This document shows, in pieces, positions 15,775-52,824 of a stretch of 64,000 nucleotides of DNA. A program made the translations under genes and the position numbers. The stretch lies in assembly GCA_037133435.1 (NCBI GenBank), contig JBAXOD010000002.1, positions 23,545-87,544 on the forward strand, read 5' to 3'. The stretch's first letter is position 1. Every line of letters starts with the position of its first letter. The notes beneath the pieces are model-generated. The model worked only from the letters and a program-made list of their open reading frames with translations. It was not told the origin of the DNA and made no database searches. The stretch is from Candidatus Moraniibacteriota bacterium. Lineage in GTDB: Bacteria > Patescibacteriota > Minisyncoccia > Moranbacterales > UBA1568.

Positions 15775-15784
15775 AGTGTTCGTT

Positions 15785-20833: not shown

Positions 20834-21030
20834 TGTGTTGTGTTAATGGATGGATTCGAAATTGCAGGCATCTCAGGAAATCCGGCATTTCATTTGTCGC
20901 ATAGCGTCTGTCTTTCCACCGAAATGGATTGCGTGTCAAAGGTACGGATGATACAGTAAGGATGTTTTCGGATAATTCGGAAGATACCGAACAGTACCAT
21001 TCGAAGAATCAGACAGCCAAACGCTCTCAT

Positions 21031-22593
21031 ATGAGGATATCTTTGGAAAGTATTTTCTATCGCGTCATCCTTCCTTTCATGTTTCTTGAGGGATTTCTCC
21101 TGAGAATCGGCAATCTCAGAAAAGGTTTCTGGATCGACGAGTATCTCACCATCGAAACCGCACAGAAACTGACGTTTTTCAATCATACTGACACGGTCGG
21201 TCTCAACCCTTATTACGTCGGCCTCCGTCTGGTCGCATACCTCTTCGGTACCGACGAGACCGCCGTACGGATCATTTCCGTCCTGTTCGGTCTTGCGTCG
21301 GCATTCATCCTTTTCCTGATCGGAAAAAAATATTTTCACGAACGCGTCGGGCTCATCTCATCCTGTATCTTTCTGCTTACTCCCTTAGGCATATCGCTCG
21401 GTCAGGAAGTACGGCCATATTCCATGCTCCTTTTCCTTTCCCTGTGCCAACTATTTTTCTTTCTGGAAATATTGCAGTCCGTCTCCGAAGGTAAGCGGGT
21501 GAAAAATATCCGATTCATGCACCTCTCCGTCCTTACCCTGCTGATCCTGTTCATCCACCTGTCATCGGTATTATTCCTCGTCTCCGAAATGATCGTCCTT
21601 TCGTTCATAACGATCATCGAAAAACGGTGGCCGACGGACGTCTTCAAATATTATCTCGCTTGTTTGTTCCCGATGTTCGCGTTCTTCGCCTGGTTCTATC
21701 GTGACATCCTTACAAAACTCGGATTTATCGTTTCGGACCGGAATTACATTACCGTCTATTCAAACAGCGGACGCTCTTTCGCCGATGTGATCGTTTTCAT
21801 CCAGAATATCTCAACGGGACTCATCCCGGAGAAGCCAAAGGAGAGCCTGCTGGTATTCCTCCTTGCGCTCATTCTGATCGGAGCATCCATCGGCATTTGC
21901 CATTCTTTCATACGACGCGCCACGATCGTAAACGCCCTCTTTGGAATAACGATTCTCCGGATCTGCATCGGGCTGTCGATGCATGACTTCATTCCGAGAC
22001 ACGCGTTCATATTGACCCCTCTTTTTTCACTCTTTCTCGGAATATCCCTCTACAACCTTTCAAAAGTTCGCAGGGTTCCAAAGGTGGTCATTTTTTGCGT
22101 GTACGGATTCTTCATTCTGTCCCTCGCATATCTTTCACTGATTTCGCAGAAAGCCGAGAAAGCCGATCCGGGGAGACAATGGGGGTCGGTCGCCGATTTC
22201 GTCGAACGAAACGCCGGACCGGAAAAAGCGGTCATCGTGGCAGTCCCCTATCTGAAAGGGATATTCACCCATTATTATCATGGAACGACTCCGATCATCA
22301 CTATGGATGATTACAAGGAAAAATCACGAAATACCCTCATAGAGAACAATGAAATCGGTGTCTCGTTCATAAATCAAGAGCTGACCGATGCGTTGATCGG
22401 CAAGAGTATCGGGTTTCGAGAAATTCTGGTCGTCAAAGACGTTATCGCCTTAGATTTGAGCGATGTGGACAAACGCTTCGATACGGCTTTAGCAAGTCGT
22501 TTCATCCGGATCGATACAACCTGTTTCCCGGCTTCAGCGAAAATCCTGTGCGTCGAACGCTATCGAAGAGCCGACCAAGAGCCTATCCGTTAG
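21031..22593 (+). CDS. GT-C fold membrane glycosyltransferase (ArnT/PMT-like)
   Basis: ~12 TM, GFWIDE in first loop, N-terminal hydrophobic domain followed by C-terminal soluble domain; start at MRISLES. Confidence 0.5.
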   Translation: MRISLESIFYRVILPFMFLEGFLLRIGNLRKGFWIDEYLTIETAQKLTFFNHTDTVGLNPYYVGLRLVAYLFGTDETAVRIISVLFGLASAFILFLIGKKYFHERVGLISSCIFLLTPLGISLGQEVRPYSMLLFLSLCQLFFFLEILQSVSEGKRVKNIRFMHLSVLTLLILFIHLSSVLFLVSEMIVLSFITIIEKRWPTDVFKYYLACLFPMFAFFAWFYRDILTKLGFIVSDRNYITVYSNSGRSFADVIVFIQNISTGLIPEKPKESLLVFLLALILIGASIGICHSFIRRATIVNALFGITILRICIGLSMHDFIPRHAFILTPLFSLFLGISLYNLSKVRRVPKVVIFCVYGFFILSLAYLSLISQKAEKADPGRQWGSVADFVERNAGPEKAVIVAVPYLKGIFTHYYHGTTPIITMDDYKEKSRNTLIENNEIGVSFINQELTDALIGKSIGFREILVVKDVIALDLSDVDKRFDTALASRFIRIDTTCFPASAKILCVERYRRADQEPIR

Positions 22594-22735: not shown

Positions 22736-22940
22736 TCAGTAGATGATAACAAACCCCCGAGTCAATCGATTCGCGATCCATCTTGTCACTCCGGTTTCAT
22801 TCCGATATCGTGATTGTCTGCGTCGAGAGGCTCCGGGAGCATTCCATGGTATCATCAGTGGGATAGGAATACCGGTAACCGGATATCGGAACAAGACAAA
22901 AAATCATATACCGAACGGCAAAAAACCACAGACAGAACCT

Positions 22941-24371
22941 ATGTCGAAACGAACACAGACGGTCATCCTCGGCGCCGGTCCGGCGGGATTATCGGCCGCG
23001 TACGAAATGAATGGGAGCGGCAGCGACATAGTCGTACTCGAGGCGGACCGATCGGTCGGAGGCATCAGCAAGACCGTCTCCTTCAAAGAATGCCTTTTCG
23101 ACCTCGGTGGACACCGATTCCATACCGATATTTCCGAAGTTTCACGGCTCTGGGAAAGCCTTCTGGGCGACGACTTCCTGACCCGACCGAGACTTTCCAG
23201 GATCCGCTACCGGGGGAAATTTTTCGATTATCCGCTCACGCCGATGAATGCCGTCTTCGGACTCGGCATGATCGATTCCATCGGTATCCTTTGGAGTTAT
23301 CTGGCCGCCCGCATGTTCCCCTCCAAGGAAGAGAGGACGTTTGAACAATGGGTATCGAACCGTTTCGGGAAACGACTGTTCGAAATTTTTTTCAAGTCCT
23401 ACACGGAAAAGGTCTGGGGAATCCCCTGCGATGAACTCAGTGCCGAATGGGCCGCACAGAGAATCGACGGTCTTTCCTTGTCCGTCGCGATCCGACAAGC
23501 CCTGTTCCCGGAACGAAATGGTAAGGTGAAGACGTTGATCGACGAATTCCGTTACCCGAAACTCGGACCAGGCATGCTCTACGACGAGATGATGCGCCGC
23601 ATACGCGAGCGTGGTGGACAGATCGAGACCGGTACGCGCGTCATAGGATTGCATGCCGACGGGAACAGGATTCGCAACATTCTCACGGAAGACGCGGATG
23701 GGAACGGCGCCGAGTATCCGGCAGACTTCCTCATCTCAAGCATGCCGATCGACGAACTCGTGACTATGATCCGGCCTGTTGCGCCCGAGGCCGTCATCGC
23801 CGCCGCAAACGGACTCCGTTATCGAAGTCTTGTCTCGGTCAGCCTCGTCCTCGATTGCCCGAACCCCTTCCCGGACAATTGGATCTACGTACACACGCCG
23901 GAAGTACGATTGGGCCGCATACAGAACTTCGGCAATTGGAGCCCTTCCATGGTCGAGCCCGTTGGACGGGTCGCCCTCGGATTGGAATACTTCTGCGACG
24001 AAGGGGACGACTTCTGGAATACGGACGATACCGCTCTCATCGCGCTCGGACTCGATGAGATGAGAAAGATCGGCATAGCGGGATATGACGGCTTTATCGA
24101 CGGGTTCGTGACGCGTATACCGAAGGCCTACCCCGTCTATCACGGTGCCTACCGAGAGAACGTCGCCATCTTACGAACGTACCTCGAAGGGTTTCGGAAC
24201 CTGCAGACGATCGGGAGAAACGGGATGTTCCGCTACAACAATATGGATCATTCGGTCCTGACGGGAATCCTGGCGGCCAAGAACATACCCGAAAAAAGAT
24301 TCGATCTTTGGGATGCGAAACGATATTCCGACGTTACTTCGATAACGGCCGACGAGGCGCTGGACATATGA
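22941..24371 (+). CDS. UDP-galactopyranose mutase (Glf)-family FAD-dependent enzyme
   Basis: VILGAGPAGLSAAYE Rossmann GxGxxG; GGHRFHTD, FEIFFKSYTEKVWGIPCDELSAEW and GRNGMFRYNNMD blocks align with Glf GPHIFHTD / YEAFFKGYTIKQWG / GRLGTYRYLDMD. Confidence 0.6.
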   Translation: MSKRTQTVILGAGPAGLSAAYEMNGSGSDIVVLEADRSVGGISKTVSFKECLFDLGGHRFHTDISEVSRLWESLLGDDFLTRPRLSRIRYRGKFFDYPLTPMNAVFGLGMIDSIGILWSYLAARMFPSKEERTFEQWVSNRFGKRLFEIFFKSYTEKVWGIPCDELSAEWAAQRIDGLSLSVAIRQALFPERNGKVKTLIDEFRYPKLGPGMLYDEMMRRIRERGGQIETGTRVIGLHADGNRIRNILTEDADGNGAEYPADFLISSMPIDELVTMIRPVAPEAVIAAANGLRYRSLVSVSLVLDCPNPFPDNWIYVHTPEVRLGRIQNFGNWSPSMVEPVGRVALGLEYFCDEGDDFWNTDDTALIALGLDEMRKIGIAGYDGFIDGFVTRIPKAYPVYHGAYRENVAILRTYLEGFRNLQTIGRNGMFRYNNMDHSVLTGILAAKNIPEKRFDLWDAKRYSDVTSITADEALDI

Positions 24372-26650
24372 AACACCGTTTCGGAAAAATTCCGACGACA
24401 CCGCGAGAAAGGATCTTCTCGTACCTGTTCCTGGTATGGATGGTCTTTTTCTTCGTCTTGCATACTGCGAACACGTGGCAACTCACCGAGAACAGCTTCA
24501 TCCCGGCGTACCTGATCGCTTTGGCGCTTTCTTCCCTTTTGGGACTAGTCATTCTCATCGCCTACCGGCTCTTCATCGTCTTACACGGAAATAGCGACGT
24601 ATCGATAGGAATCCCTGCCCTTTCCATAGCGATCATAGTCATCGTCATGACCGTCTTCAACATCGACCGGATCGTCTCCATGGACCCGACCGGACTCAGC
24701 GCCATTCCCGGTTTCGCCCTCGACTTCCTGAAATCGGTCTCGGTCGTCACATTGTTTCTCCTCTCCGCGTATCTTGTCGGCGATGCGCTCCTGGAATATT
24801 TCATGCCCCGCGTGTTCGGCAAAGGGGAAGGCGGTCCGATATCCGTCGCGATCGGAGTCGGAGTCTCCGGGTACTTTATCCTCCTCATCGATTTGTTCGG
24901 CATCGCCTACCCCTTGACCGTCTTCTTGTCCGCGATCGCTATCATTACCCTGTTCCGGAAGCGAGCAAAAGAACTCCTCAATTCCTTCATGACCAAGAAG
25001 TTGATCATCAAACCGGGATTACGGACCGAGAACGTCATAGCCGTTATCCTTATCATGCTGACGTTTCTCTCCTTTTTCCTGTCATACGCCGGCCTCGCCG
25101 TCGGAGGATGGGATACGTTCCATCAATATCTCGTCTTCCCGGAAACATACGCGAAATATCATACGCTCGTACCGTTCCCCTTCCATCCCCATTGGGGATT
25201 CCCCCAGCTGTCGGAAATGATATTCGAGGAAGGACTCCTCCTCGGCGACACACGGACGCCGTTTCTCCTCAACTTCGCGTTCATCACGCTCGGCTTCATC
25301 GGCTTTGCCGTAACCGCGAAAAAAATCGCCGGAAAATCCTTCGTATGGCCGCTCGCCGCATTCGCGTCGGTTCCCCTTCTGCTCCGGTTCTGGTCCGGAT
25401 ACCTGAAAGTCGAATCGATCCTCTTCCTGTTCGTCGCGGCGCTCTTCATGCTCCTTTGGAAGATCGCAAGACGGAAGGAGTCCAGCGACGGAAAATTCGG
25501 CCCGTGGGTACTCGTCGCCATCATGCTCGGACTGATGCTGTCCGTAAAATACACATCCTTCTTCATCGGTGCGGCATTGGCTGCCTCGCTTATTCTCTTC
25601 CACCGATCCTTCGACTTCGATTGGAAAAAGGCAGTCCTTGTCGCGGGCATCTCGATGATTTTCCTCTCCCCGTGGCTCATAAAAGACCAGCTCTATTATG
25701 GAAACCCACTCTACCCCGCGCTCCAGGGAAATGATCCTGTTTCGGAAAAGCTGGGAACAAACTGTCAGGCTTCTTTTATACAGATCTGTAACGAGGACAA
25801 TTTTGTGAACCGTCGCCCGGAAATGTTTCAAAAAGATTCCGTTCATCTTTCAAGTGCCTTCCTCACGACGCGACCGTTCATAATGGGAGACGGTTCTGAT
25901 ATCACTTCGACCGGACCGTTCTTCATGCTCTTCCTACCGCTTTTATGGTGGCTTCTTTTCCGAACCAAAGATCCATTTCTCCGCTTCCTCATATCATTCT
26001 CGGCGATATTCCTCGCGCTTGGCGTCTATTTCTTCACCGGACAGACCTGGTATCTTCTGCCGATGATGTTCCCTTTCATGCTCGCGCTCGCCTACGCGTG
26101 GAAAGAGTCGGAAGGAACCATCATCAATGCCATGAGCCGTTCCCTCATATTCCTGTGGATTTTCTTCCTTCTCACGGTCAACATATTCAGTTCAGGAACC
26201 GTGGAACTGGCCAAATATGCCAGAAGCGGATCAGGTCTCGGATACGCGCTGCAGGAAATCGGGAAAATATGTGGCGACCAGAGACGCCGCGACGCATATC
26301 TGGCATGGCAGGATGTGAATGATCTCATCTCCAAGCGCGACGGTGAAAGCACAGTCGTCTACGGGTTCATGGACCCTCAGGGATATTTCATCAAGGACTC
26401 TTTCCGTCATTTCATTCCGGACTTCTTCGGATACCTCTATACCTGCATATCGAAAAACGGCGACATCGGAGACGGGCTGAAGAAACTCGGTGTGACGCAC
26501 GTCCTGTTCGATGCGGCCGCACCGTCCGGCTGTCTTCAAAACGACGTGTTCCTCACCTGTCGCGCCTACTTCGGTTTCCGGGATTTCATCTCGACGCACG
26601 GCACACTTGTGAAAAAGGAGGGGTCGTTCGAACTGTATTCGATAGAATAG
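24368..26650 (+). CDS. Large polytopic membrane protein, putative GT-C-type glycosyl (galactofuranosyl/arabinosyl) transferase
   Basis: 760 aa, >14 TM, ATGA overlap with glf-like gene; assignment by context only. Confidence 0.35.
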   Translation: MKHRFGKIPTTPRERIFSYLFLVWMVFFFVLHTANTWQLTENSFIPAYLIALALSSLLGLVILIAYRLFIVLHGNSDVSIGIPALSIAIIVIVMTVFNIDRIVSMDPTGLSAIPGFALDFLKSVSVVTLFLLSAYLVGDALLEYFMPRVFGKGEGGPISVAIGVGVSGYFILLIDLFGIAYPLTVFLSAIAIITLFRKRAKELLNSFMTKKLIIKPGLRTENVIAVILIMLTFLSFFLSYAGLAVGGWDTFHQYLVFPETYAKYHTLVPFPFHPHWGFPQLSEMIFEEGLLLGDTRTPFLLNFAFITLGFIGFAVTAKKIAGKSFVWPLAAFASVPLLLRFWSGYLKVESILFLFVAALFMLLWKIARRKESSDGKFGPWVLVAIMLGLMLSVKYTSFFIGAALAASLILFHRSFDFDWKKAVLVAGISMIFLSPWLIKDQLYYGNPLYPALQGNDPVSEKLGTNCQASFIQICNEDNFVNRRPEMFQKDSVHLSSAFLTTRPFIMGDGSDITSTGPFFMLFLPLLWWLLFRTKDPFLRFLISFSAIFLALGVYFFTGQTWYLLPMMFPFMLALAYAWKESEGTIINAMSRSLIFLWIFFLLTVNIFSSGTVELAKYARSGSGLGYALQEIGKICGDQRRRDAYLAWQDVNDLISKRDGESTVVYGFMDPQGYFIKDSFRHFIPDFFGYLYTCISKNGDIGDGLKKLGVTHVLFDAAAPSGCLQNDVFLTCRAYFGFRDFISTHGTLVKKEGSFELYSIE

Positions 26651-26830: not shown

Positions 26831-27628
26831 ATGTCCGCAAAGAAGATAAGCGAGCTGTTCGATTTCACGGGAAAGACGGTCGTCGTCACCGGTGGCGCCA
26901 ACGGTATCGGCTACGGCATCGCGCGACGATTCGCGGAAGCGGGTGCGAACGTGGTCATTTCGGATATCAACGAGGAGGTCGGCGTCGCCAAGGCCGAGTC
27001 GCTCGGTGCGGAATTCGGTGGCAAGACCCTGTTCGTGAAGACCGATGTCTCTTCGGAAGAAGACGTGAAGGCGCTCGTCGCCAAGACGAAAGAAACGTTC
27101 GGCAGCCTCGATGTCATGGTGAACAACGCGGGTATCTTCCCCACCTCGCCGGTCCTCGATATGGAAGTCGGTTTCTGGGACAAGGTGCAGGCCGTGAACG
27201 GTCGCGGCGTGTTCCTCGGTTGCCGTGAAGCCGCCAAGGTCATGATCGGACAGGGCGGCGGCTCAATCATCAACATCGCCTCGATCGACGCCTTGCATCC
27301 GAGCATGGTGGGACTCGCGGCCTATGACGCATCCAAGCACGGCGTCTGGGGCTTTACCAAGAACTTCGCGCTCGAGCTCGCTCCGCACAAGATCCGCGTG
27401 AACGCGATCGCTCCCGGGGGCGTGGCCACCGAAGGCGTCGCCGCCATGAGCTCAGGCGTGCCGGCCATGACGGACGAACAGATGAAGGCCTTCCTCAACG
27501 CCATCCCGATGGGACGTTATGCGGAGCCCGACGAGATGGCGACGGTCGCCCTCTTCCTCGCGAGCGACGCGGCGAACTATATGACCGGATCGATCGTCGT
27601 CGCCGACGGCGGCTCGCTCATCGCGTAA
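26831..27628 (+). CDS. SDR family NAD(P)-dependent oxidoreductase
   Basis: TGGANGIGYGIARRFAEAGANVVISD cofactor motif, NNAG, YxxxK (YDASKHGV). Confidence 0.8.
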   Translation: MSAKKISELFDFTGKTVVVTGGANGIGYGIARRFAEAGANVVISDINEEVGVAKAESLGAEFGGKTLFVKTDVSSEEDVKALVAKTKETFGSLDVMVNNAGIFPTSPVLDMEVGFWDKVQAVNGRGVFLGCREAAKVMIGQGGGSIINIASIDALHPSMVGLAAYDASKHGVWGFTKNFALELAPHKIRVNAIAPGGVATEGVAAMSSGVPAMTDEQMKAFLNAIPMGRYAEPDEMATVALFLASDAANYMTGSIVVADGGSLIA

Positions 27629-27650
27629 GGTCGGGGCAAAAAAGCATACT

Positions 27651-27686
27651 GCCGGACCGGATCGTTTCCGGTCCGGTTTCGTTTTG
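27651..27686 (+). terminator. Rho-independent terminator after SDR gene
   Basis: gccggaccggatcgtttccggtccggtttcgttttg. Confidence 0.6.
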
Positions 27687-27961
27687 CGTTGACGTTCGTT
27701 TCACGGCATCTTGCCTGAAAATGAAAACGGATTATACTCTACGAGGTATACCCATACATAATCATTGACCGAAAGGATCGGAAACCGGGATATCCCTACT
27801 TGTTGAAAAGTCCCTCACAGAAATGTCATTCCGGCCTACGAGCCGGAATCTATGCCTTGGATCCCGGGTCAGGCCCGGGATGACAGCGTATTGTATATAT
27901 GCATTCTTGTTGTGTTTTCTTCAAAGTGCGGCATTCCACCTTTCCGAAAGAACCTACCGAT

Positions 27962-28987
27962 ATGGAAAACAAGAAAAAGATGCTCATAGAGCTCAATCGG
28001 AAGCATTCCGACATGTTCATGAGTCAGCGTCTGGAACGCGATCTGTATCTCGCGAATCACCCGACCAAGATCATCGCGTTCAAATGCATGGACGGACGTG
28101 TCCATATGCCGACCGTCACCCACACCCCGCTCGGCGTCATGCGCCCCTACCGGAATATCGGCGGCAAATTCGACCTCGGCTGGCCGCTTCTGAACGAATC
28201 GTTCGACCGGAGCGTCACGCGCGCGGTCACAAAGGGAAACCGTGTTCTGGTTCTCGTCACCTATCATTTTTCCGCGGGCGATACGCACCGTGGATGCGCC
28301 GGCTTCAAGTACGACTGCGAAGAATCAAAGCGTTCGACGGAACAGTTCCGCAAACAGATTCTGCGCGTCTACGGCGAGAACAACGGGGTCGTGTTCCCTA
28401 TCCTCGTCGGACTCGAGACGGACAAGGACGCGCTCATCTTTCACGGGGAACAGGGCGACATCATCGACGTCTCGACGATCACGGACGGGTCCGAGGACAA
28501 CCTGCACCAACTGTTCCGCGCGCTCTACCCCTCGATGCCCGATCGCATCCTCGCCGACCTCATTCCGCTCGTTTCCGGAAACCTGGCGCACGTGAACGAG
28601 ACGAAAAGCGGCAAGCCGGTGGAGGACCTCGTCCACGGCGAATGGATACTGGCGATCGGCAAGGGCTTCGACTGGCTGCATACCCCGAACATGGCGCTCA
28701 TCGTCGGGCCGTACGACCCGAACCTCGGCGAACCGATCACGACCGCGGCCGGCATCATCCGGTCCAACGTGAATGCGGGAAGGGCGGCCGGAGGATTCGT
28801 ACTGCTGTCGTCGGCCGTCTATGCCGACCCCGCGGAACGGAACCGGACGAAGGAACGCTCCCTCTACCTGAACCGGCTCTCCCAGGACATCATCCGGAAA
28901 AATTATCCGGAAATCGCGGATCTGATGCATTCGATGGCCGTCATCATGGACTCCGAAACGATGCGTATGGAATTGGTCGACGAATAG
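27962..28987 (+). CDS. Divergent beta-class carbonic anhydrase-like protein with ~150-aa C-terminal extension (paralog 1)
   Basis: CMDGR (CxDxR), RNIGG (cf. RNAGN), VLVLVTYHFSAGDTHRGCAG (HxxCxG) in beta-CA spacing; start MENKKKMLIEL. Confidence 0.45.
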   Translation: MENKKKMLIELNRKHSDMFMSQRLERDLYLANHPTKIIAFKCMDGRVHMPTVTHTPLGVMRPYRNIGGKFDLGWPLLNESFDRSVTRAVTKGNRVLVLVTYHFSAGDTHRGCAGFKYDCEESKRSTEQFRKQILRVYGENNGVVFPILVGLETDKDALIFHGEQGDIIDVSTITDGSEDNLHQLFRALYPSMPDRILADLIPLVSGNLAHVNETKSGKPVEDLVHGEWILAIGKGFDWLHTPNMALIVGPYDPNLGEPITTAAGIIRSNVNAGRAAGGFVLLSSAVYADPAERNRTKERSLYLNRLSQDIIRKNYPEIADLMHSMAVIMDSETMRMELVDE

Positions 28988-29025
28988 CGTTCGAGTCCCT
29001 TGACACGGAACTCCCGAAGGAGTAC

Positions 29026-29059
29026 AAAAACAGGTAGCACAAGCCTGTTTTTGTTTTTT
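29026..29059 (+). terminator. Rho-independent terminator
   Basis: aaaaacaggtagcacaagcctgtttttgtttttt. Confidence 0.55.
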
Positions 29060-29097
29060 AAAAATCAGTAAACCACACGGCTCGGGAGGGCTGTCAT

Positions 29098-30183
29098 ATG
29101 TTTTGGGAAGGAGAAAAATATCCATGGGGCGACATGACGAATGAAGCAAGAATTAATCTGCTTCATTCGGAGGTTTTCCAAAAATACTCGGAAGAATACG
29201 TGAGCCATGAACCGACACGGAAAATGATACGGGAGAAGTATAATATCGCCGTTACATTCGTATTTTGTAGCGATCCGAGACTTCGCGACATTTTTTTCAA
29301 TCTCGTTCCGGGAGAATCCTGGTATAAACGAGGTATCGGAAGCATCGTGAACGATGCGGATCCTTTGTTCCGGGCTACATTCTCACGACTGCTCGACAAA
29401 CACGAAGTGAGACATTTGGATCACTTATATATCCAGACGTATCACTTCTCCAAAAGCGACGGTCAAAAATGCTGTGCTGGCCAGAAATATGATGCTGACA
29501 AAGCAAGGCTTTCGGGAGAATTCGAAACGGAAACGGCGCGAAGAATCTATCGCTTCAAAAGGTTCGTCTATCCGATCCTAATCGGAATCGAAACCGATCT
29601 TGGTGAAGCGATCATTCACGGGTACGACGGTTCGATGCTCAGAAGCTCGGAAATCGGATCAATGTCAGACGATGCGATCTATACTCGTCTTTATACCATG
29701 TTTCGGGATACGACGTTCAACAAGTCTTTACCGGAGAAACTAAAATACTATATCCTGGAGCGACTCATCAAAGGAAATGTGCGTTACATTTCGGAAGATC
29801 ATACCGAAACGAATGAAGTCCTGCAAAGACAACATCAGTTCGTACTCGGTATGGGAACGGGACTCTTCGCGTTTCCGGCTGGGCGTGTTCTCATCATCCC
29901 GCCGTTTCCCCTCGATAAGAAACTGGAGCTCATCAAAGGAGCTCGGTTGATCAGAAAAGTTTTCGATGCCGGTCGAATTAAGCACGAAAACGGATTCATC
30001 CTTTCGACCTCAACCATGTTCGACAATCCGGATGACTGGCCATGGGCAGCCGAAGAAACGCTTCGCTTCGCACGATTCGTGGATAAGACCATCAAAAAAG
30101 GAGCGAAAGATCTATATGAAAGAATGACGGTATTGCCGGTTATCATGAACCGTATCGACCGCATGACCACGATTATCGATTAG
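29098..30183 (+). CDS. Beta-carbonic-anhydrase-like paralog 2 (CSDPR retained, Zn-ligand His replaced: SDGQKCCAG)
   Basis: Collinear with paralog 1 (TYHFS, PILIGIETD, C-terminal domain); His of HxxC absent. Confidence 0.4.
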   Translation: MFWEGEKYPWGDMTNEARINLLHSEVFQKYSEEYVSHEPTRKMIREKYNIAVTFVFCSDPRLRDIFFNLVPGESWYKRGIGSIVNDADPLFRATFSRLLDKHEVRHLDHLYIQTYHFSKSDGQKCCAGQKYDADKARLSGEFETETARRIYRFKRFVYPILIGIETDLGEAIIHGYDGSMLRSSEIGSMSDDAIYTRLYTMFRDTTFNKSLPEKLKYYILERLIKGNVRYISEDHTETNEVLQRQHQFVLGMGTGLFAFPAGRVLIIPPFPLDKKLELIKGARLIRKVFDAGRIKHENGFILSTSTMFDNPDDWPWAAEETLRFARFVDKTIKKGAKDLYERMTVLPVIMNRIDRMTTIID

Positions 30184-30195
30184 ACCTTATCAACC

Positions 30196-30225
30196 GAAAG
30201 GGAACCAATGGTTCCCTTTCTTCTT
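30196..30225 (+). terminator. Rho-independent terminator
   Basis: gaaagggaaccaatggttccctttcttctt. Confidence 0.6.
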
Positions 30226-30292
30226 ATATCAGTCACTTTTCCTTTACAGCGGGCGTTTCGCGTGCTAGGCTTGGAATGCCTATTTTTCCCAT

Positions 30293-30865
30293 ATGGAAGG
30301 ACTGTTTTCCCCCTCATCCGCCGTTTTGTTCGCGCTCGGCGCCGCAGGGTTCGCCGTTTTTTCATTCGCGCTGTCGCTGTCGCTCTTCCTGCGGATCCGC
30401 CGGATGAAACGCGACCTCTCATCCTTCCTTTCCGGCAAGGACGGCAAGGATCTCGAAGAGCTCGTCCTCGGACAGGGAAAGGAGATCACGGCGATCAATG
30501 GCGAAATCAAGAATCTCTACGATGCCGCCGAGGAGCTCTATCTGCTCGGTCAGGAAAGCATCCATCGGACCGAGGTCGTCCGTTTCAATCCTTTCAAGGA
30601 AGTCGGCGGCAACCAGAGCTTCGTCATCGCGTTCCTCAACGGTCGCAACACCGGATTCGTCCTCTCCTCGCTCCACACGCGCGAAGGGACACGGGTCTAC
30701 GCGAAACCCGTGGTGAGCGGTGCCGAGACCGAGGGACATCCTCTCTCGAAGGAAGAAAAGTACGCCATCGGACTGGCCGCCAAGAAACGTATCGGCAAGG
30801 AGTCGACCGAACAGTCGGGGAAGAAACCGCTTCCGTCTAACAAAGCACTGAATACGACCGTATGA
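30293..30865 (+). CDS. N-terminally membrane-anchored protein, DUF4446-like
   Basis: [26 protein letters not shown]; [31 protein letters not shown] resembles DUF4446 core; overlaps infB start by 4 nt. Confidence 0.4.
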
Positions 30866-35714: not shown

Positions 35715-38312
35715 CTATCGCCTATACGCCGACCTCCGATCATCAGGCTCGGAAGCGGGAATCAGGGAAGAAACGAAACCGACCGAGAACAGGAGGAATG
35801 CCGAGGTCAGGATCATCCTGACGGCGAAGACGACGAACGGGGGCACGTATTTCGACACCGCTGCGAAAAATCGGTTCGATCCGGACGAGGCGACGGTCAG
35901 ATCCTCGTTCGCTATCGCTTGAACACGTACGTCACTTACGACCTTCGTTTCCGAGGAATCGATGACGTTGACTCCCCACAGATCTCGGAGTGCCACACGT
36001 TTCTCGTTCGCTTGGACGATTTTCCCCGTAAAGTTGACGAAGTTCGCGTCACCGATCGTGCCGGGTTTCGGAAGCGTATACGCTATCTGCATATCCGCGG
36101 ACTCGTCCACTGTTTTGCCGTCCACCGTCCAGACATGCGACAGCAGATACTTCTTCGCGTATCCCGGAATGATCGACGCCTTCATCGGTATGACGGTGCC
36201 GCTCGCGAACCGTTCGAAAATTTCGTCACTATGCTCGTCGTTCTTGGTACCGTCAAGTTCCGTAAACGTGCCGACGTATCGCGGCCAGACGGCACTCGTG
36301 TCGTTCGATTCGAGCAGGATTTCCGGATCGACGACCTGATAGTTCCGCGAAAGGGACAACGCCTTTCCCGTCGCTACATTCACCGCTTCCATCCGTACGG
36401 TGTACGTTTCTCCCGGCTCGCCCGTTACCGCGAAAAACGCGGTGTTCCCGAGCCCTCCCGAAGGACAGTCGACGGACGAGACGGTCGAGGAACAGTTCAG
36501 TGCGGCACCGTTTATGGTCCATCTGAAATTCTTCCACTCGGTAGAAGTCGCGTTGCGGAGCGTGACCCCGAGAATCTCGTTTTTCATGACGCGACACGAG
36601 ATACGGTTCAGGTTCTCCTTCGCTTCGGCCGCGGTGGAAGGCGTCGGATAGTACATGTCACAGATCGGATCAATCGAGGTGTCAAGCGCCACCTGTGCCG
36701 CGCCGGATGTGGACGCGGTCGCGGTGGTCGTATACGTGGAGATCTTCTTGTCCGTATTGGTGACTTTCACGACCACGTCGCTTTTCCCTTCGGGTCGGGC
36801 GATCATGTTCTGCGCAACCGTACTGCCGCCCGACGCCGTCGCGGTATAGGTGGTCGCGGAATAATTCTCTCCCGCCCGGGTCGTGATACGCATGTAGACC
36901 GGATCGGTATTCGCGAACGTACCAAGAATCTCCGGCTTCATATCAAGCAGCACTTTGATGGAAGTCAGGCCGTTCTGCGAGATCGCCTGGGTGGTGGAAT
37001 TCGGGAGCGTGATGAGCTTTCCAGCCGTGAGTAAACCCGCCGCCTCAAGCTGGGCCGTGACGTCCTTCCAGCCGTCGACCGGATTATTGCTCAGCTCGAC
37101 GGTCCACGAATAGGTGATTTCTTCGGGACTTTTGGATGAATTGTCGACCGAAGCCGTAGCAGTGACCATGTCCCCGCCGATTCCTTCCGTCTTGTCGTTC
37201 ACCGGATTATCCGGCGTCGCGGAAACGGAGAGCTCGAGTTTCTTGGAAGAACCGGATTCAGAATCCATCGGATCGACCAGGTTCATCTCGAGACAGTCAT
37301 CGATATCCCCTTTCGTCAGGCTGGTCGTCAAAAACGTGACCGGATACCCGTGTACCGTCTCTATATAGCTCCCAGGATTCTTGATGGGGCACTTCTTGTT
37401 CTTCGAGAATCCCCACTGGACCATCATCGTCGCGTCATCATGCTTCGTCGCGACCATCGACGATCCCTCCACGAGCACCCCGACTTTGTCTCCGGTCTGA
37501 TAGTTCCACTTGAAGGTATCCCGACCCAGGCCGACCGCGTTCGCCTCGTCCTTGTTGCCGTTACCGCTCGTATCCGGATCGTGCGGGTTGGTCCCCCATG
37601 CCTTCTCGTCCGACAGTCCGAATGTTCCGTCCGTTCCGCCGACCTGACTCCCGTTCAATTCCGGGAACAAGTGGACGCATGCCGGCAACTCATAAAAATG
37701 TCCGCTGACCGGATCGTGCATGTAGCACCAATCCTTCTTCGTATCGACGACGAGCTCCCCTCCGAAATGAGCCTTGTATCCGTCGTTATCATCGTCAGTG
37801 TCGTATTTGAATCCGTTACTGTCGGCATTGTCCGTAGCGAGGATTCGCGAAGCGGCGACTTTCCAATCATTGACGGTCACCGACCCGTCGTTGTCCGAAT
37901 CACAGTAACTCGCCTGACCGGAAGAACCGCCGAGTTCGCATCCGTTCCGCTTCAGATACCAGGTGTAATAAAGCTGTGACTCGCTGGCATTGGAAAAATA
38001 GGTCGGGAACGCCTTCGCGCTGAGTTTCTGCCCGTCCTTGGGATCCGAAGGGCTGAACGCAATCGTCACCTCGGGCGCGTTGCCCTTGTTTTCGGACACG
38101 TTGAACGACTCCCCGTATCTGCGTATGACCGCGGGGTCGAGATGATACCGCTGTTCAATGGCCGACGCTATCGAATCGGCACTCGGGAAATCCAAAGCGA
38201 CCACCTTTTCGGAAATGATGAAACCGGACAAGAAAATCACGAAAGCGACGGGAATCATTCGTCTTCCCGATTGTTTCCTCATTGGATGCATAGCGTTGAA
38301 TTTATTTTTCAT
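35715..38312 (-). CDS. Large secreted/surface protein (865 aa), Thr/Ser/Asp/Asn-rich, N-terminal signal-anchor
   Basis: Start MKNKFNAMHPMRKQSGRRMIPVAFVIFLSGFII; no catalytic motifs; composition of adhesin-like proteins. Confidence 0.5.
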   Translation of the reverse strand: MKNKFNAMHPMRKQSGRRMIPVAFVIFLSGFIISEKVVALDFPSADSIASAIEQRYHLDPAVIRRYGESFNVSENKGNAPEVTIAFSPSDPKDGQKLSAKAFPTYFSNASESQLYYTWYLKRNGCELGGSSGQASYCDSDNDGSVTVNDWKVAASRILATDNADSNGFKYDTDDDNDGYKAHFGGELVVDTKKDWCYMHDPVSGHFYELPACVHLFPELNGSQVGGTDGTFGLSDEKAWGTNPHDPDTSGNGNKDEANAVGLGRDTFKWNYQTGDKVGVLVEGSSMVATKHDDATMMVQWGFSKNKKCPIKNPGSYIETVHGYPVTFLTTSLTKGDIDDCLEMNLVDPMDSESGSSKKLELSVSATPDNPVNDKTEGIGGDMVTATASVDNSSKSPEEITYSWTVELSNNPVDGWKDVTAQLEAAGLLTAGKLITLPNSTTQAISQNGLTSIKVLLDMKPEILGTFANTDPVYMRITTRAGENYSATTYTATASGGSTVAQNMIARPEGKSDVVVKVTNTDKKISTYTTTATASTSGAAQVALDTSIDPICDMYYPTPSTAAEAKENLNRISCRVMKNEILGVTLRNATSTEWKNFRWTINGAALNCSSTVSSVDCPSGGLGNTAFFAVTGEPGETYTVRMEAVNVATGKALSLSRNYQVVDPEILLESNDTSAVWPRYVGTFTELDGTKNDEHSDEIFERFASGTVIPMKASIIPGYAKKYLLSHVWTVDGKTVDESADMQIAYTLPKPGTIGDANFVNFTGKIVQANEKRVALRDLWGVNVIDSSETKVVSDVRVQAIANEDLTVASSGSNRFFAAVSKYVPPFVVFAVRMILTSAFLLFSVGFVSSLIPASEPDDRRSAYRR

Positions 38313-38356
38313 CGTCCGTATGATAATGATTCCGATGGCACGTGAAACTGAAGACG

Positions 38357-39022
38357 TCACCTGCCAAAAACGAGAAACGCCACGTCGGCAAGAAACAGCG
38401 TCAGCCAGCCGGAAAACCAGGAATAATAGATCGAGCGGGTACGATGCGCGACGAACCCGGACGCGAATGCCGCAAGAATCATCGGCGTGCTGTTCCAACC
38501 GATACCGCCGAATGCCGCCAAAAACGCGACGAAAATTCCTCCTTGCAGAAAAACCGCGAGGATGCCGGTCTTGGACAACCACGAAAGCATGATGAGGCCG
38601 CGGAAAAACACCTCAAAGAGAACGGAGACGATACCGACCAGTACCACCTCATACAAAACGAAATAGAGGAACGAATCCTGAATGAAGTTTGGCAGCGAAT
38701 ACGTCACATCGGTCCCTCCGATAGCAATCACCGAGTACCAGACGACGAGAAACGGGATGACCGCGACCACGGCGGTCAGAAAACCGTATTTTTTCACGCT
38801 CCCCTGAAAACCGATCGATGAAAGCGGCTCTTTCTCAACGAAAATCACGTAGAGGATAGGGAGACACAGGAGAAAGACGATCCCCAACACGCCGGCCTGC
38901 AGGGATTCGTCCATATTCGCGTCGGCCGGAAACAAGCGAAATGCGAGAAGCGTCGCCACGACAAACAGTCCCGTCGAGAGGAACCGCTTCATATCGAAAG
39001 CCAGAATAGGAGTCTCACTCAT
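38357..39022 (-). CDS. CPBP family intramembrane metalloprotease (CAAX protease-like)
   Basis: EVFFRGLI motif (EExxxR), multiple TM, TATAAT 12 nt upstream of chosen start MSETPIL. Confidence 0.65.
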   Translation of the reverse strand: MSETPILAFDMKRFLSTGLFVVATLLAFRLFPADANMDESLQAGVLGIVFLLCLPILYVIFVEKEPLSSIGFQGSVKKYGFLTAVVAVIPFLVVWYSVIAIGGTDVTYSLPNFIQDSFLYFVLYEVVLVGIVSVLFEVFFRGLIMLSWLSKTGILAVFLQGGIFVAFLAAFGGIGWNSTPMILAAFASGFVAHRTRSIYYSWFSGWLTLFLADVAFLVFGR

Positions 39023-39076
39023 AGCATTGCTTCCATTATAACGTTTTTTTTCAATCTTGAAAATTTCTGACAAAAT

Positions 39077-40147
39077 TTAGGCGTTCTTGATCTTGTTCTT
39101 GATGCGACTCAGAAGAAACGCGACCAGAAATGACTGAAGCGGGAAGACGGCGATGATCGGGATGCTCTCGATTACCGCCACGATCACAATGACACCGATA
39201 CGCTTTGCTAGTAATATGATTTTCTCTTTCGGCGGCAGTTTCCTCGTATTCTTGTCAAGTGCTATGATGATGATCTGTCCGATAACGAACGGTCCCGAAA
39301 TGAGTGTGGTCACCCCCGGAAGAAAGAAATCGAAAAAATCGGTCAGGTCGTCGATGCCGCCGAGCATGTAAATCAATAATTTTGATGTAAACGACAAATC
39401 TGAGGCGTTCGGATCATGCTGTGCTGTTCCACTCCCCTGCACGGTCACGTTCCCCGTCTGCCCCGATTTGCGTTGCTCTTCCCAGGACGGGTATCGGGTC
39501 GGCCGTCCTCCCATGGCTTCCGATGATTCTTCCGCATCCTCCTCATCCGATTCAGTAGTCACCGAATTCGGAACAAAACGCAGATTATTTGGAGATTCGC
39601 TATATCGGACATTCCGCTGTTTCGGCCGGGCTGTCGTCGATGCGGCTGGTTTCCCCGAAGCGGAGTTCGAGAGCTGCAAACTGTAATTCTCACGTGCTCG
39701 TTTCGTTTCGATCGCAAGCCGTGTCGCGTCCGGATTTCGATCTTGTTCGAGTTCAAGCTCATCCCTTAAAAGTGCACCAAAAGATTGTACATTCATATTC
39801 TCAGGCCGGTTCGCAGTCAATTCCGCGGGCGTTTCCGAAGTGGCGATACGGCGCTGCAGACGAGTACTCTCAGTCGCTCGTTTCTCGAGCATCGCACGCT
39901 GAACAGCGGCTGATTCCCGGTCACTGTCGATCGCGTCCGCTGTCAAAAGAGCGTCGGCCGCTACGACCGTACGGGCGATATTTTGTCGTGCTCCCGCGGC
40001 CTCATTCATCCTCCGTGCACGCAGGCCCGCAAGCATGCCCGACATACGTGCCGCATTCCGTGCGTTAGGCGAAATCACGGTCCGATCCGAAGCCGGCAAG
40101 CGGGCACGACCGTCGGGAGCTCCTGTATTTGGATTCGAAGTACTCAT
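39077..40147 (-). CDS. Hypothetical protein: ~260-aa disordered polar N-region plus C-terminal TM pair
   Basis: 356-aa ORF, C-terminal FVIGQIIIIAL and IGVIVIVAVIESIPIIAVF helices. Confidence 0.45.
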   Translation of the reverse strand: MSTSNPNTGAPDGRARLPASDRTVISPNARNAARMSGMLAGLRARRMNEAAGARQNIARTVVAADALLTADAIDSDRESAAVQRAMLEKRATESTRLQRRIATSETPAELTANRPENMNVQSFGALLRDELELEQDRNPDATRLAIETKRARENYSLQLSNSASGKPAASTTARPKQRNVRYSESPNNLRFVPNSVTTESDEEDAEESSEAMGGRPTRYPSWEEQRKSGQTGNVTVQGSGTAQHDPNASDLSFTSKLLIYMLGGIDDLTDFFDFFLPGVTTLISGPFVIGQIIIIALDKNTRKLPPKEKIILLAKRIGVIVIVAVIESIPIIAVFPLQSFLVAFLLSRIKNKIKNA

Positions 40148-40229
40148 AGGTACTGACTACGTATCACGAATCATTATGAGAGAGACCGAAAGGAGCGATA
40201 GAATCAAAAAGACGACCTCCCGTGACGGA

Positions 40230-40385: not shown

Positions 40386-40432
40386 AGCTCTCATCCGCCA
40401 AACTGGAACGAAATATAAATTGGGAAATGGGA

Positions 40433-42769: not shown

Positions 42770-42773
42770 ATGT

Positions 42774-52823: not shown

Positions 52824-52824
52824 C

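What the first reader, a model, noticed from the sequence alone, without database searches (positions are those of the whole stretch)
27962..30183. Tandem divergent beta-carbonic-anhydrase-like paralogs, one lacking the Zn-ligand histidine
Both proteins are about 340 aa. Each has the beta-CA zinc-site framework (CxDxR, then RNxGG, then HxxCxG at beta-CA spacing) followed by an unassigned ~150-aa C-terminal domain. Each gene has its own intrinsic terminator. Paralog 2 keeps Cys/Asp/Arg but has SDGQKCCAG where paralog 1 has GDTHRGCAG, so the His ligand is lost. This would suggest a regulatory or non-catalytic partner, or a different metal site. I do not recognise the extended architecture.
Basis: partly seen in the sequence, partly recalled or inferred. 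Interest (0 to 1): 0.7.

Follow-up and report, generated by a model that had tools for sequence, protein, structure and literature searches.

The report
Paired CsoSCA2-type carbonic anhydrase paralogs
Two neighbouring genes of a Moranbacteria (CPR) genome encode compact relatives of the carboxysome carbonic anhydrase CsoSCA: the first is an ordinary member of the already described "CsoSCA2" group, and the second belongs to a rare, unannotated, fast-evolving sister subfamily that keeps the whole zinc site, so the "lost zinc histidine" was a misreading.

Summary
The sequence features are real, but the key inference is wrong. P1 (27962-28987, 341 aa) and P2 (29098-30183, 361 aa) are full-length paralogs (26% identity, E 1e-30). 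Both AlphaFold models match the solved CsoSCA structures over their whole length, so the "unassigned" C-terminal domain is CsoSCA's defunct duplicate β-CA domain.

In CsoSCA the zinc ligands are Cys173, His242 and Cys253. His242 is the His of "YHFS", which both proteins keep.

P1 has all seven CsoSCA active-site residues. It is a compact "CsoSCA2", a group already reported in Moranbacteria.

P2 keeps Cys-Asp-Arg-His-Cys but has Gly252→Cys (KCCAG) and QHQ in place of His397-x-Glu399. It has no Pfam or NCBIfam hit. It belongs to a small subfamily ("type B") that lies next to a canonical CA gene in eight of ten loci examined and is under purifying selection (dN/dS about 0.07).

P2 has its own conserved promoter-like box, which overlaps P1's terminator.

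Verdict: a new variant of a known kind, of moderate interest.

The parts
27711..27738 (+). Promoter-like site for P1 (TTGCCT-16 nt-TATACT)
   Evidence: Consensus scan. The same box, TTGCCT-16-TATAAT, sits upstream of the P1 ortholog in L002. Promoter function is inferred.
27824..27885 (+). Structured element in the long P1 leader (nested inverted repeats TGTCATTCCGG...CCGGGATGACA); its role is unknown
   Evidence: Inverted repeats. The leader fold has z = -2.7. There is no Rfam match. The element is absent from the shorter leader of L002, and only one copy occurs in the window.
27962..28987 (+). P1: canonical compact CsoSCA2-type β-carbonic anhydrase, 341 aa. Active-site residues are C42, D44, R46, H102, C112, H225 and E227.
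   Evidence: PF20686 scores 24.8 bits, above its cut-off. 2fgy is hit at E 5e-5 and the family profile at E 8e-10. The AF2 model has pLDDT 93.5. Foldseek's top hits are CsoSCA 8thm/2fgy/9g4t, E about 1e-16, TM about 0.7. More than 2,100 homologs were found. Residues were mapped.
29000..29028 (+). Promoter-like box for P2 (TTGACA-17 nt-TACAAA). Its -10 element overlaps the 5' arm of the P1 terminator.
   Evidence: TTGAC is invariant in five orthologous intergenic regions, and the -10 is TATGAT in L010. Sequence shown. Function is inferred. The scan tool did not list it because the -10 lacks the final T.
29024..29060 (+). Intrinsic-terminator-like hairpin plus T-run after P1
   Evidence: 12-bp stem followed by TTTTTT. 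An equivalent hairpin with a U-run is predicted in the same place in L002, L004, L009 and L010.
29084..29090 (+). Shine-Dalgarno-like GGGAGGG for P2, inside a small conserved hairpin
   Evidence: Conserved block CGGCTCGGGAGGGCCGAC in four loci. Fold.
29098..30183 (+). P2: divergent 'type B' CsoSCA2 paralog, 361 aa. It keeps C57, D59, R61, H116 and C126. It has C125 in place of Gly252, Q123 in place of His250, and Q245-H246-Q247 in place of His397-x-Glu399. It also carries a conserved N-terminal MFWE..YPWGDMTN extension.
   Evidence: No Pfam or NCBIfam hit. Paralogy to P1 at E 1e-30. The clade profile hits CsoSCA 8thm at E 1.2e-5 across both domains. The AF2 model has pLDDT 87.3. Foldseek's top hits are CsoSCA 2fgy/9g4t, E about 5e-14. 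Residue analysis.
30196..30230 (+). Terminator-like hairpin after P2 (GAAAGGGAACC-AAT-GGTTCCCTTTC, then a T-rich tail)
   Evidence: Sequence.

Best explanation
Both genes encode compact, non-carboxysomal relatives of the α-carboxysome carbonic anhydrase CsoSCA. Each has two short N-terminal helices, a catalytic β-CA domain and a defunct duplicate β-CA domain.

P1 is a canonical CsoSCA2. It has every catalytic residue and lacks CsoSCA's redox-switch cysteine pair. It is therefore most likely the cell's working cytosolic CO2/HCO3- interconverting enzyme.

P2 belongs to a rare, long-branched sister subfamily, called 'type B' here. This subfamily is almost always encoded next to a canonical CA gene.
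- P2 keeps the complete Zn-binding triad and the Asp-Arg dyad, so it should still bind zinc and CO2/HCO3-.
- In this lineage the second shell is rewired. The proton-shuttle and bicarbonate-positioning pair His397/Glu399 is replaced by Gln-His-Gln. A Cys sits directly before the ligand Cys.
- I therefore predict an enzyme with strongly altered turnover (probably much lower) or altered regulation. It would work with P1 either as a specialised isoform or as a partner subunit.

P2 is transcribed from its own promoter, which begins inside P1's terminator. The two can therefore be expressed in different ratios.

Shown here: homology, fold, residue mapping, conserved pairing and purifying selection. 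Inferred: zinc binding, reduced or altered catalysis, cooperation with P1, and promoter function.
For: Homology and fold:
- P1 vs P2, E 1e-30.
- Sequence and profile hits to CsoSCA.
- Both AF2 models (pLDDT 93.5 and 87.3) match CsoSCA structures over their full length.

Residue mapping:
- The alignment with an offset of 28 reproduces Cys173, Asp175, Arg177, His242, His250, Gly252, Cys253, His397 and Glu399 as named in the literature.
- P1 has all seven active-site residues.
- In a sample of 74 diverse superfamily members, 69 keep the full heptad. The exceptions are the four proteins of the window's P2 subclade and one other.
- Gly252, His397 and Glu399 are 115/115 in canonical members. H397A abolishes HnCsoSCA activity.

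Type B is a real clade:
- It is monophyletic in 29 of 30 NJ bootstraps, with long branches.
- Its members share derived motifs.

Conserved pairing with a canonical CA gene:
- Seen in the window, L002, L004, L009, L010, ERZ1426827 and L012. In one further case the partner is a Pro_CA_2 gene.

Selection:
- dN/dS is about 0.067 for P2 and 0.073 for P1 between L002 and L004.

Transcription signals:
- A conserved TTGAC box and terminator lie between the two genes.
Against: - No biochemical data exist for any CsoSCA2, type A or type B, so activity, metal content and oligomeric state are all untested.
- More basal type-B members (P0125-P0127, P0128, P0138, P0140) keep His397/Glu399. The loss is therefore specific to this subclade, and the subfamily as a whole may simply be active CAs.
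- His246, next to the lost His, is invariant in the subclade and could substitute for it. The Gln could hydrogen-bond substrate, as a Gln does in canonical β-CAs (my own knowledge).
- Separate promoter and terminator signals argue against strict stoichiometric co-expression.
- A physical P1-P2 interaction could not be tested because no multimer prediction was available.
- P2's model is least confident (pLDDT about 66) exactly around residues 231-250, which hold the QHQ segment.
Confidence: 0.45

Rival explanations
1. P2 is a pseudoenzyme ('prozyme'-type) subunit. It is catalytically dead and forms a heteromer with P1, or with another CA, to stabilise, localise or regulate it.
For: - The window's P2 has lost His397 and Glu399 at the aligned positions, and H397A kills HnCsoSCA.
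- Position 397 switches between His and Gln in orthologs that are 88% identical (L002 vs L004). This suggests the position no longer carries a catalytic constraint.
- Type-B genes are adjacent to an intact CA gene in eight of ten loci examined.
- A conserved aromatic N-terminal peptide is specific to type B and could be a docking motif.
Against: - The Zn triad and the catalytic Asp-Arg dyad are invariant across all type-B members down to 28-34% identity. This is more than a scaffold would need.
- Basal type-B members keep the full catalytic heptad.
- The compact CsoSCA2 form may even have lost dimer contacts.
- Each gene has its own promoter and terminator signals.
Confidence: 0.25
2. P2 is simply a second active carbonic anhydrase isozyme. 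It is differently regulated through its own promoter, and the changed residues are neutral or only tune kinetics.
For: - The complete Zn site and dyad are retained.
- It is under purifying selection.
- It has independent transcription signals.
- The type-B ancestor evidently had all seven catalytic residues.
Against: - Three positions that are 115/115 invariant in canonical members are changed in P2: Gly252, His397 and Glu399.
- 41 of the 87 family positions that are at least 90% conserved are changed in all seven type-B members examined, often to a new residue that is conserved within the clade.
- A redundant isozyme would not be expected to stay glued to another CA gene across such divergence.
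Confidence: 0.15
3. P2 has a changed substrate or a changed metal/redox chemistry. Examples are a COS/CS2-type hydrolase, or a redox-switched site that uses the vicinal Cys125-Cys126. This includes the first reader's 'different metal site'.
For: - β-CA-fold COS and CS2 hydrolases keep the same Zn ligands and dyad but have remodelled pockets (own knowledge). 3vqj and 3ten appear only as very weak profile hits, E 0.36-0.62.
- KCCAG places a second thiol next to the ligand Cys in 5 of 7 clade members and in P0128 and P0140.
- Carboxysomal CsoSCA is itself controlled by a vicinal Cys pair, though at another site.
- The pocket-forming segment GFDWLHxPN is replaced.
Against: - There is no specific similarity to COS/CS2 hydrolases.
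- The CC pair is not universal in the clade (P0125 has GC, P0127 has SC).
- No sulfur-metabolism genes lie nearby.
Confidence: 0.1
4. P2 is a decaying duplicate, that is, a pseudogene in the making.
For: - Its branch is long.
- It diverges faster than P1: 64% vs 82% identity to the same genome, dN 0.283 vs 0.119.
- It has no database family hit.
Against: - Intact ORFs of conserved length occur in at least seven lineages.
- dN/dS is about 0.07.
- Substitutions, the RBS and the promoter box are conserved within the clade.
- The fold prediction is confident.
Confidence: 0.02

Closest known systems
CsoSCA2, compact variant (non-carboxysomal CsoSCA homologs; Sutter, Kerfeld & Scott 2022, PMC9164163; also the 'non-cso' sequences of Pulsford et al. 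2024, PMC11086599)
   Same: - It is encoded outside any carboxysome locus.
- It has an N-terminus of about 40 aa forming two short helices, then an active β-CA domain and a defunct β-CA domain.
- P1 has all catalytic residues. Ca. Moranbacteria and Ca. Falkowbacteria are explicitly listed as carriers.
- P1 is a straightforward member.
   Different: - P2 and its type-B relatives are not detected by the Pfam or NCBIfam models. They form a separate long-branched clade with their own motifs: an N-terminal W-motif, KCCAG, and PxGRxLIxxP in place of GFDWLHxPN.
- In the window's subclade they lack His397/Glu399.
- None of the papers I searched or read describes a pairing of a canonical with a divergent copy.
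Carboxysomal CsoSCA (H. neapolitanus 2FGY/9G4T; Cyanobium 8THM)
   Same: - Best structural match for both proteins, over the catalytic and C-terminal domains.
- Same unusual ligand spacing: His, then ten residues, then Cys.
- Same active-site residues in P1.
   Different: - No 144-aa N-terminal domain, no hook motif and no Rubisco-binding peptide.
- Not in a cso operon.
- TIGR02701 scores 33 bits against a cut-off of 241.
- No regulatory Cys283-Cys284 pair; P1 has GENNG there.
- Only 15-20% identity.
Canonical β-carbonic anhydrases (Pro_CA, PF00484)
   Same: Same α/β fold, the Cys-His-Cys zinc site and the Asp-Arg dyad. These enzymes are weaker but consistent fold hits.
   Different: - Canonical enzymes are single-domain homodimers with an HxxC ligand motif.
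- Here a single chain carries a pseudo-dimer, and an 8-residue insertion separates the ligand His from the ligand Cys.
- Pro_CA scores below its cut-off: 14.9 vs 25.7 bits.
Catalytically impaired paralog partners of active enzymes (for example the trypanosomatid AdoMetDC/DHS 'prozymes', PMC5201418 and PMC3663545; the inactive γ-CA domain of CcmM that recruits CcaA)
   Same: A divergent paralog with altered catalytic residues is kept beside an intact enzyme gene and is under purifying selection.
   Different: P2 keeps the whole metal site and dyad. No physical interaction has been shown. This is an analogy only.
Energy-coupled CA-like subunits (DabA with DabB; cyanobacterial CupA/ChpY on NDH-1)
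   Same: In three relatives' loci (L008, L012, L014) type-B or type-A CsoSCA2 genes flank a complex-I-like membrane module with antiporter-like subunits.
   Different: - The window's own pair is not next to such genes.
- There is no sequence relationship to DabA or CupA.
- The gaps to the module are 266-308 nt.
- Coupling is purely hypothetical.

Membership tests
β-class carbonic anhydrase | Zn ligands Cys-His-Cys plus the catalytic Asp-Arg dyad | tested here: met
   P1 has C42/H102/C112 and D44/R46. P2 has C57/H116/C126 and D59/R61. These positions are invariant in all alignments.
β-class carbonic anhydrase | β-CA α/β fold | tested here: met
   In the Foldseek PDB search, CsoSCA is followed by 1ddz, CcaA and other β-CAs for both models.
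β-class carbonic anhydrase | CO2 hydration activity and bound zinc | not testable with these tools
   This needs purified protein. No CsoSCA2 has been assayed.
Carboxysomal CsoSCA (TIGR02701 / cso-operon enzyme) | Large N-terminal domain with the hook motif and Rubisco-binding peptide | tested here: not met
   Only about 35-48 residues (two helices) precede the catalytic β1 strand. TIGR02701 scores 33 vs 241 bits.
Carboxysomal CsoSCA (TIGR02701 / cso-operon enzyme) | Encoded in a cso carboxysome operon with Rubisco and shell genes | tested here: not met
   The neighbours are an SDR, DUF4446, IF-2 and the CCA enzyme. Neither Rubisco nor any other carboxysome protein family appears among the Pfam hits to the window's 26 largest ORFs.
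Carboxysomal CsoSCA (TIGR02701 / cso-operon enzyme) | Regulatory vicinal Cys283-Cys284 redox switch (about 80% of CsoSCA sequences) | tested here: not met
   P1 aligns GENNG to HCCG. P2's only Cys residues are 57, 125 and 126.
Carboxysomal CsoSCA (TIGR02701 / cso-operon enzyme) | Catalytic domain followed by a defunct duplicate C-terminal domain that supplies His397/Glu399 | tested here: met
   This holds for P1: full-length structural alignment, a second HMM stretch aligning H225/E227 to H397/E399, and PF20686 above its cut-off. For P2 the two-domain fold is met, but the His/Glu pair is not.
CsoSCA2 compact variant (PMC9164163) | Outside carboxysome loci, with a short two-helix N-terminus followed by active and defunct domains | tested here: met
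   Moranbacteria are listed.
CsoSCA2 compact variant (PMC9164163) | All active-site residues C173, D175, R177, H242, C253, H397 and E399 present | tested here: met
   P1 has all seven.
CsoSCA2 compact variant (PMC9164163), applied to P2 | All active-site residues C173, D175, R177, H242, C253, H397 and E399 present | tested here: not met
   P2 has Q245 at the His397 column and Q247 at the Glu399 column. Gly252 is Cys. P2 is therefore filed as a divergent sister subfamily, not as a canonical CsoSCA2.
Pseudoenzyme partner of an active paralog | Physical complex with the active paralog that modulates its activity | not testable with these tools
   No multimer prediction or experiment was available. 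Only conserved gene adjacency supports it.
COS/CS2 hydrolases of the β-CA fold | Specific sequence or structural similarity to characterised COSase/CS2 hydrolase, and their substrate tunnel | tested here: inconclusive
   Only marginal profile hits to 3vqj (E 0.36) and 3ten (E 0.62), no better than generic β-CAs. Tunnel geometry could not be inspected.
Energy-coupled CA subunit (DabA/CupA-like) | Encoded with, and bound to, an antiporter-like membrane subunit | tested here: not met
   This is not the case in the window. Adjacency is seen only in relatives L008, L012 and L014.

The most novel reading that the evidence does not exclude
Type-B CsoSCA2 proteins such as P2 may be dedicated partner subunits that, together with a canonical CsoSCA2, couple CO2/HCO3- interconversion to ion-translocating membrane machinery in CPR bacteria.

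In three relatives the CA genes flank a complex-I/Hyf-like module. Where these subunits lie within the fetched loci, the large subunit (L012, L008) lacks the [NiFe]-ligand cysteines and the small subunit (L014) lacks the Fe-S-ligand cysteines, so the module looks redox-dead. In two other relatives the CA pair follows the ATP-synthase genes.

This would be a new kind of vectorial or energy-coupled carbonic anhydrase system, analogous to DabAB or NDH-1/CupA but built from CsoSCA-type proteins. The window's P2 would be a derived, possibly regulatory, member of it.
Probability: 0.1. Interest if true: 0.8.

Novelty: new variant of a known kind. Interest (0 to 1): 0.45.

Why it matters
CsoSCA2 enzymes appear to be the main carbonic anhydrase type in many Patescibacteria, with more than 2,100 clusters at 90% identity. 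None has ever been assayed.

P1 adds nothing new. P2 exposes a subfamily that current family models do not detect and that is annotated as a hypothetical protein wherever a source names it. It keeps a full zinc site while changing residues that are invariant in every canonical member. It is also persistently encoded beside a canonical CA gene.

If P2 proves to be a regulatory or partner subunit, it would be the first heteromeric arrangement in this CA lineage. It would also be a natural experiment on the His397/Glu399 proton-shuttle model just proposed for CsoSCA.

The finding is a useful caution as well. The canonical HxxC rule mis-assigns the zinc ligand in CsoSCA-type β-CAs.

Tried and rejected
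- Pfam and NCBIfam on P2 gave no hit even at E ≤ 10.
- A word-indexed homolog search with P2 found only three proteins. With the type-B profile at E ≤ 1e-20 it found four; that threshold was probably too strict.
- The search for related loci with the 8-sequence alignment failed because no stretch was conserved enough.
- With the 4-sequence alignment, the GTDB genome scan returned only the HGA31 MAG.
- Two JGI metagenome scans, one with the type-B alignment and one with P0138, found nothing.
- Rfam showed no riboswitch or known RNA in 27600-30300.
- I looked for Rubisco, Nuo/Hyf or ATP-synthase genes among the window's 26 largest ORFs to link the CAs to a pathway. None was found.
- Rejected: a recent tandem duplication of P1. 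The type-B clade is never sister to the P1 group (0 of 30 bootstraps). Long-branch effects mean only that recent origin is unsupported, not that the true position is known.
- Rejected: pseudogene.
- Rejected: membership in carboxysomal CsoSCA. The N-terminal domain, the operon context, the redox pair and the TIGR02701 score all fail.
- Literature searches found no paper on CsoSCA2 pairs, on CAs of Patescibacteria, or on CA genes beside CPR Hyf-like complexes.
Full report
**1. What is in the sequence**

The region holds two same-strand ORFs.
- P1 runs from 27962 to 28987 and is 341 aa. Its start, MENKKKM, is shared by all orthologs.
- P2 runs from 29098 to 30183 and is 361 aa. Orthologs conserve the N-terminus MFWE..YPWGDMTN, so the first ATG is the real start rather than the ATG at 29134.

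The two proteins align end to end at 26% identity, E 1e-30. Terminator-like hairpins with T-runs follow each gene. P1 is 100% identical to a hypothetical protein of a Candidatus Moraniibacteriota MAG (WCL23_00770), and P2 is 100% identical to the next locus tag, WCL23_00775. The window is therefore from a CPR/Patescibacteria genome.

**2. What family the proteins belong to**

P1:
- It passes the Pfam gathering score for PF20686, the CsoSCA catalytic domain.
- It hits the H. neapolitanus CsoSCA structure 2FGY by sequence at E 5e-5. A second stretch falls in the C-terminal domain.
- A profile of 59 family members raises this to E 8e-10.

P2:
- It has no Pfam or NCBIfam hit.
- A profile of its clade hits Cyanobium CsoSCA (8THM) at E 1.2e-5 across both domains.

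AlphaFold models built on these alignments are confident: pLDDT 93.5 for P1 and 87.3 for P2. Foldseek against the PDB returns the CsoSCA entries 8THM, 2FGY and 9G4T as the top hits for both models. E-values range from 1e-16 to 2e-11, TM is about 0.7, and 357-395 columns align. The two-domain Porphyridium β-CA and ordinary β-CAs follow.

The "unassigned ~150-aa C-terminal domain" is the defunct duplicate β-CA domain of CsoSCA.

**3. The zinc histidine**

Three papers give the CsoSCA zinc ligands as Cys173, His242 and Cys253. They give the dyad as Asp175-Arg177 and name His397 and Glu399 as further essential residues.

In the alignment, subtracting 28 (the tag) from the 2FGY chain index reproduces every one of these residues, and also His250, Gly252, Ala254 and Ala255 as named. 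Under that mapping:
- His242 is the His of YHFS. This is P1 H102 and P2 H116.
- The His of THSGC/THRGC is His250, which is not a ligand.

The YHFS His is invariant in all alignments and is 115/115 in canonical members. The His250 column is His in only 97 of 115, with Asn, Arg and Lys also present. Within P2's own clade it reads Q, A, H, S, S, K, S.

The ligand His is therefore not lost. CsoSCA-type enzymes simply carry an insertion between the ligand His and the ligand Cys. As a result the sequence contains a decoy HxxC. The Cys42-to-His102 distance of 60 residues is the spacing I recall for pea β-CA (Cys160, His220), which is my own knowledge and was not checked here.

**4. P1 is an already described kind**

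Sutter, Kerfeld and Scott (2022) named CsoSCA homologs outside carboxysome loci "CsoSCA2". They described a compact variant with a two-helix N-terminus of about 40 aa, an active and a defunct domain, and all catalytic residues. They noted that none has been studied. Their table footnote lists Ca. Moranbacteria (nine genomes) and Ca. Falkowbacteria (eight genomes) among the carriers.

P1 fits on every count:
- It has C42, D44, R46, H102, C112, H225 and E227.
- It has two N-terminal helices in the model.
- It has no carboxysome context.
- It lacks the Cys283-Cys284 redox switch of carboxysomal CsoSCA.

The family is large, with more than 2,100 clusters, mostly from Patescibacteria.

**5. P2 is something less ordinary**

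An exhaustive phmmer search of 1.84 billion representatives with P2 found only five strong relatives at 34-64% identity (P0123-P0127). Below them there is a gap down to about 29% for everything else.

These sequences, plus the window's P2 and P0122, are monophyletic in 29 of 30 NJ bootstraps. Their root-to-tip lengths are 1.27-1.59, against a median of 0.90 and 0.75 for P1. They are never sister to the adjacent P1 group (NJ only, and long-branch effects are possible).

P0128 (Ca. Falkowbacteria), P0138 and P0140 are the next relatives and share derived motifs:
- an N-terminal aromatic motif, [YF]xW[GSD]x[MW]xN;
- (K/R)CCAG;
- PxGR/PxHRxLIxNP in place of GFDWLHxPN;
- NGF.

I call this group "type B".

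Of 87 positions that are at least 90% conserved in canonical members, 41 are changed in all seven type-B sequences, often to a new residue that is conserved within the clade. Examples are Met43→Ser, Asp156→Gly, Asp199→Tyr/Phe and His33→Tyr.

The five core residues Cys, Asp, Arg, His and Cys are invariant throughout. In the window's subclade (window, P0122, P0123, P0124), however, Glu399 is Gln. His397 is Gln in the window and in P0123, and Gly252 is Cys. All three positions are 115/115 in canonical members. H397A abolishes HnCsoSCA activity. Among 74 diverse superfamily members, only these four proteins and one other depart from the catalytic heptad.

**6. P2 is maintained and paired**

P2 is under purifying selection. 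Between L002 and L004 its dN/dS is 0.069/1.04, against 0.059/0.80 for P1. Over longer distances P2 diverges about twice as fast as P1:

| Comparison | P1 ortholog identity | P2 ortholog identity |
|---|---|---|
| window vs L002 | 82% | 64% |
| window vs L009 | 76% | 45% |
| window vs L010 | 63% | 36% |

A type-B gene lies directly beside a canonical CA gene in eight of ten loci examined:
- CsoSCA2 upstream in the window, L002, L004, L009, L010 and ERZ1426827;
- CsoSCA2 downstream in L012;
- a small Pro_CA_2 gene upstream in one JGI contig.

P0128 has no adjacent CA gene. The P0140 contig ends just after the gene, so its partner cannot be judged. Two P1 orthologs at 73% identity have no type-B gene beside them (P0007 and P0005), so the pair is not universal. 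A GTDB-wide pattern scan found only one further genome.

**7. Transcription signals**

The P1-P2 spacer is conserved in architecture across five loci:
- an invariant TTGAC(A) box at window 29000-29005;
- 17 nt downstream, TACAAA at 29023-29028 (TATGAT in L010);
- the terminator hairpin at 29024-29054 with its T-run.

The putative -10 lies in the 5' arm of the terminator. A transcript started there would lack the full hairpin. P1 would then terminate, and P2 would start independently within about 60 nt. This is an inference from consensus and conservation only.

P1's promoter-like box (27711-27738) is also conserved in L002.

**8. Mechanistic reading**

P1 is most likely the active cytosolic CA.

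For P2 the evidence points to retained zinc and ligand binding, because the triad and dyad are invariant, with a rewired second shell. I estimate the possibilities as follows:
- about 45%: a zinc-binding, kinetically altered or differently regulated isoform or partner that works with P1;
- about 25%: a catalytically dead partner subunit;
- about 15%: a plain isozyme;
- about 10%: new substrate or redox chemistry through Cys125-Cys126;
- about 2%: decay.

None of this can be settled without assays and a multimer test.

**9. A lead outside the window**

In L012 and L008 the type-B gene directly follows a Hyf/complex-I-like module made of NuoB-, HyfB-, NuoH/K-, HyfF- and NuoCD-like genes. In L014 a canonical P1 ortholog directly precedes the same module.
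- In L012 and L008 the large subunit reads ERLSGDM and DPSFCNW where [NiFe] hydrogenases have their Cys motifs.
- In L014, the only locus that holds a complete small-subunit gene, that subunit lacks the usual Fe-S cysteines.

The assignment of those motifs rests on my own knowledge. Two other CA pairs follow atpD/atpC.

This suggests a possible link between CsoSCA2-type CAs and ion-translocating machinery. There are caveats. L012 and L008 are related genomes (NuoCD 67% identical). The gaps to the module are 266-308 nt. The window's own pair has no such neighbours.

**10. Verdict**

P1 is already known in kind. P2 is a new, unannotated variant within a known family, and its conserved pairing is worth an experiment. 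Interest is moderate.

Noticed in passing
L012:1-9404; L008:1-7134 (also L007); L014:5001-11026: CsoSCA2-family genes flank a Hyf/complex-I-like membrane module (NuoB-, HyfB-, NuoH/K-, HyfF- and NuoCD-like genes). In L012 and L008 the large subunit has ERLSGDM and DPSFCNW in place of the [NiFe] Cys motifs. In L014 the NuoB-like subunit lacks the Fe-S cysteines. Together these point to a redox-dead 'Ehr-like' complex next to carbonic anhydrases in Moranbacteria and Falkowbacteria-type genomes.
   Followed up: partly
JGI 3300075153 contig (P0125) and ENA ERZ1426827 contig (P0126); no DNA held: Two type-B genes sit just after ATP-synthase genes. One contig reads atpC, then a 142-aa Pro_CA_2 gene, then type B. 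The other reads atpD, atpC, CsoSCA2, then type B. In the first case the partner CA belongs to a different family (PF20393).
   Followed up: no
window 29000-29060: A promoter-like TTGACA-17-TACAAA box is conserved in five orthologous loci. It overlaps the 5' arm of the P1 terminator hairpin, a compact terminator/promoter arrangement between the two paralogs.
   Followed up: partly
window 27739-27961 (core 27824-27885): The P1 leader is about 150 nt longer than in L002. It contains a nested inverted-repeat structure (fold z = -2.7) with no Rfam match and no second copy in the window. In L002 a PRK/CYTH gene lies upstream of P1; the window has no such gene there.
   Followed up: partly
P2 residue 245 (window 29830-29832) and its orthologs in L002 and L004: The column equivalent to the essential His397 switches between Gln (window, L002) and His (L004, L009), even between orthologs that are 88% identical. 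The neighbouring His246 is invariant in the subclade.
   Followed up: partly
window 30293-30865: A DUF4446 gene directly follows P2, with IF-2 after it, in four related loci: the window, L002 (L003 is the same place on a second contig), L004 and L009. It is absent from more distant type-B loci, so this is probably just synteny.
   Followed up: no
window 35715-50000: A block of large minus-strand ORFs has mostly no Pfam hit (955, 356, 621 and 825 aa) and includes a TraG/VirB4-like P-loop ATPase (40433-42769). A tyrosine recombinase gene lies just downstream (50194-51177). GC falls to 0.44-0.48 at 46-50 kb against about 0.55 elsewhere. This may be a T4SS or mobile region. A T4SS-pilin-domain protein lies at 14569-15807.
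   Followed up: no
window 52777-57424: Two NUDIX-domain proteins and a nicotinamide/nicotinate phosphoribosyltransferase (NAMPT_N plus NAPRTase) are clustered together. This looks like a NAD-salvage cluster.
   Followed up: no
window 24308-26650 and 20929-22593: Two large multi-pass membrane proteins lie upstream of the CA pair, beside an amine-oxidase-like flavoprotein (22743-24371). One has a PMT_2 glycosyltransferase-like domain. The other has only a weak LIC_10190-family hit. They are probably cell-envelope glycosylation genes unrelated to the CAs.
   Followed up: no
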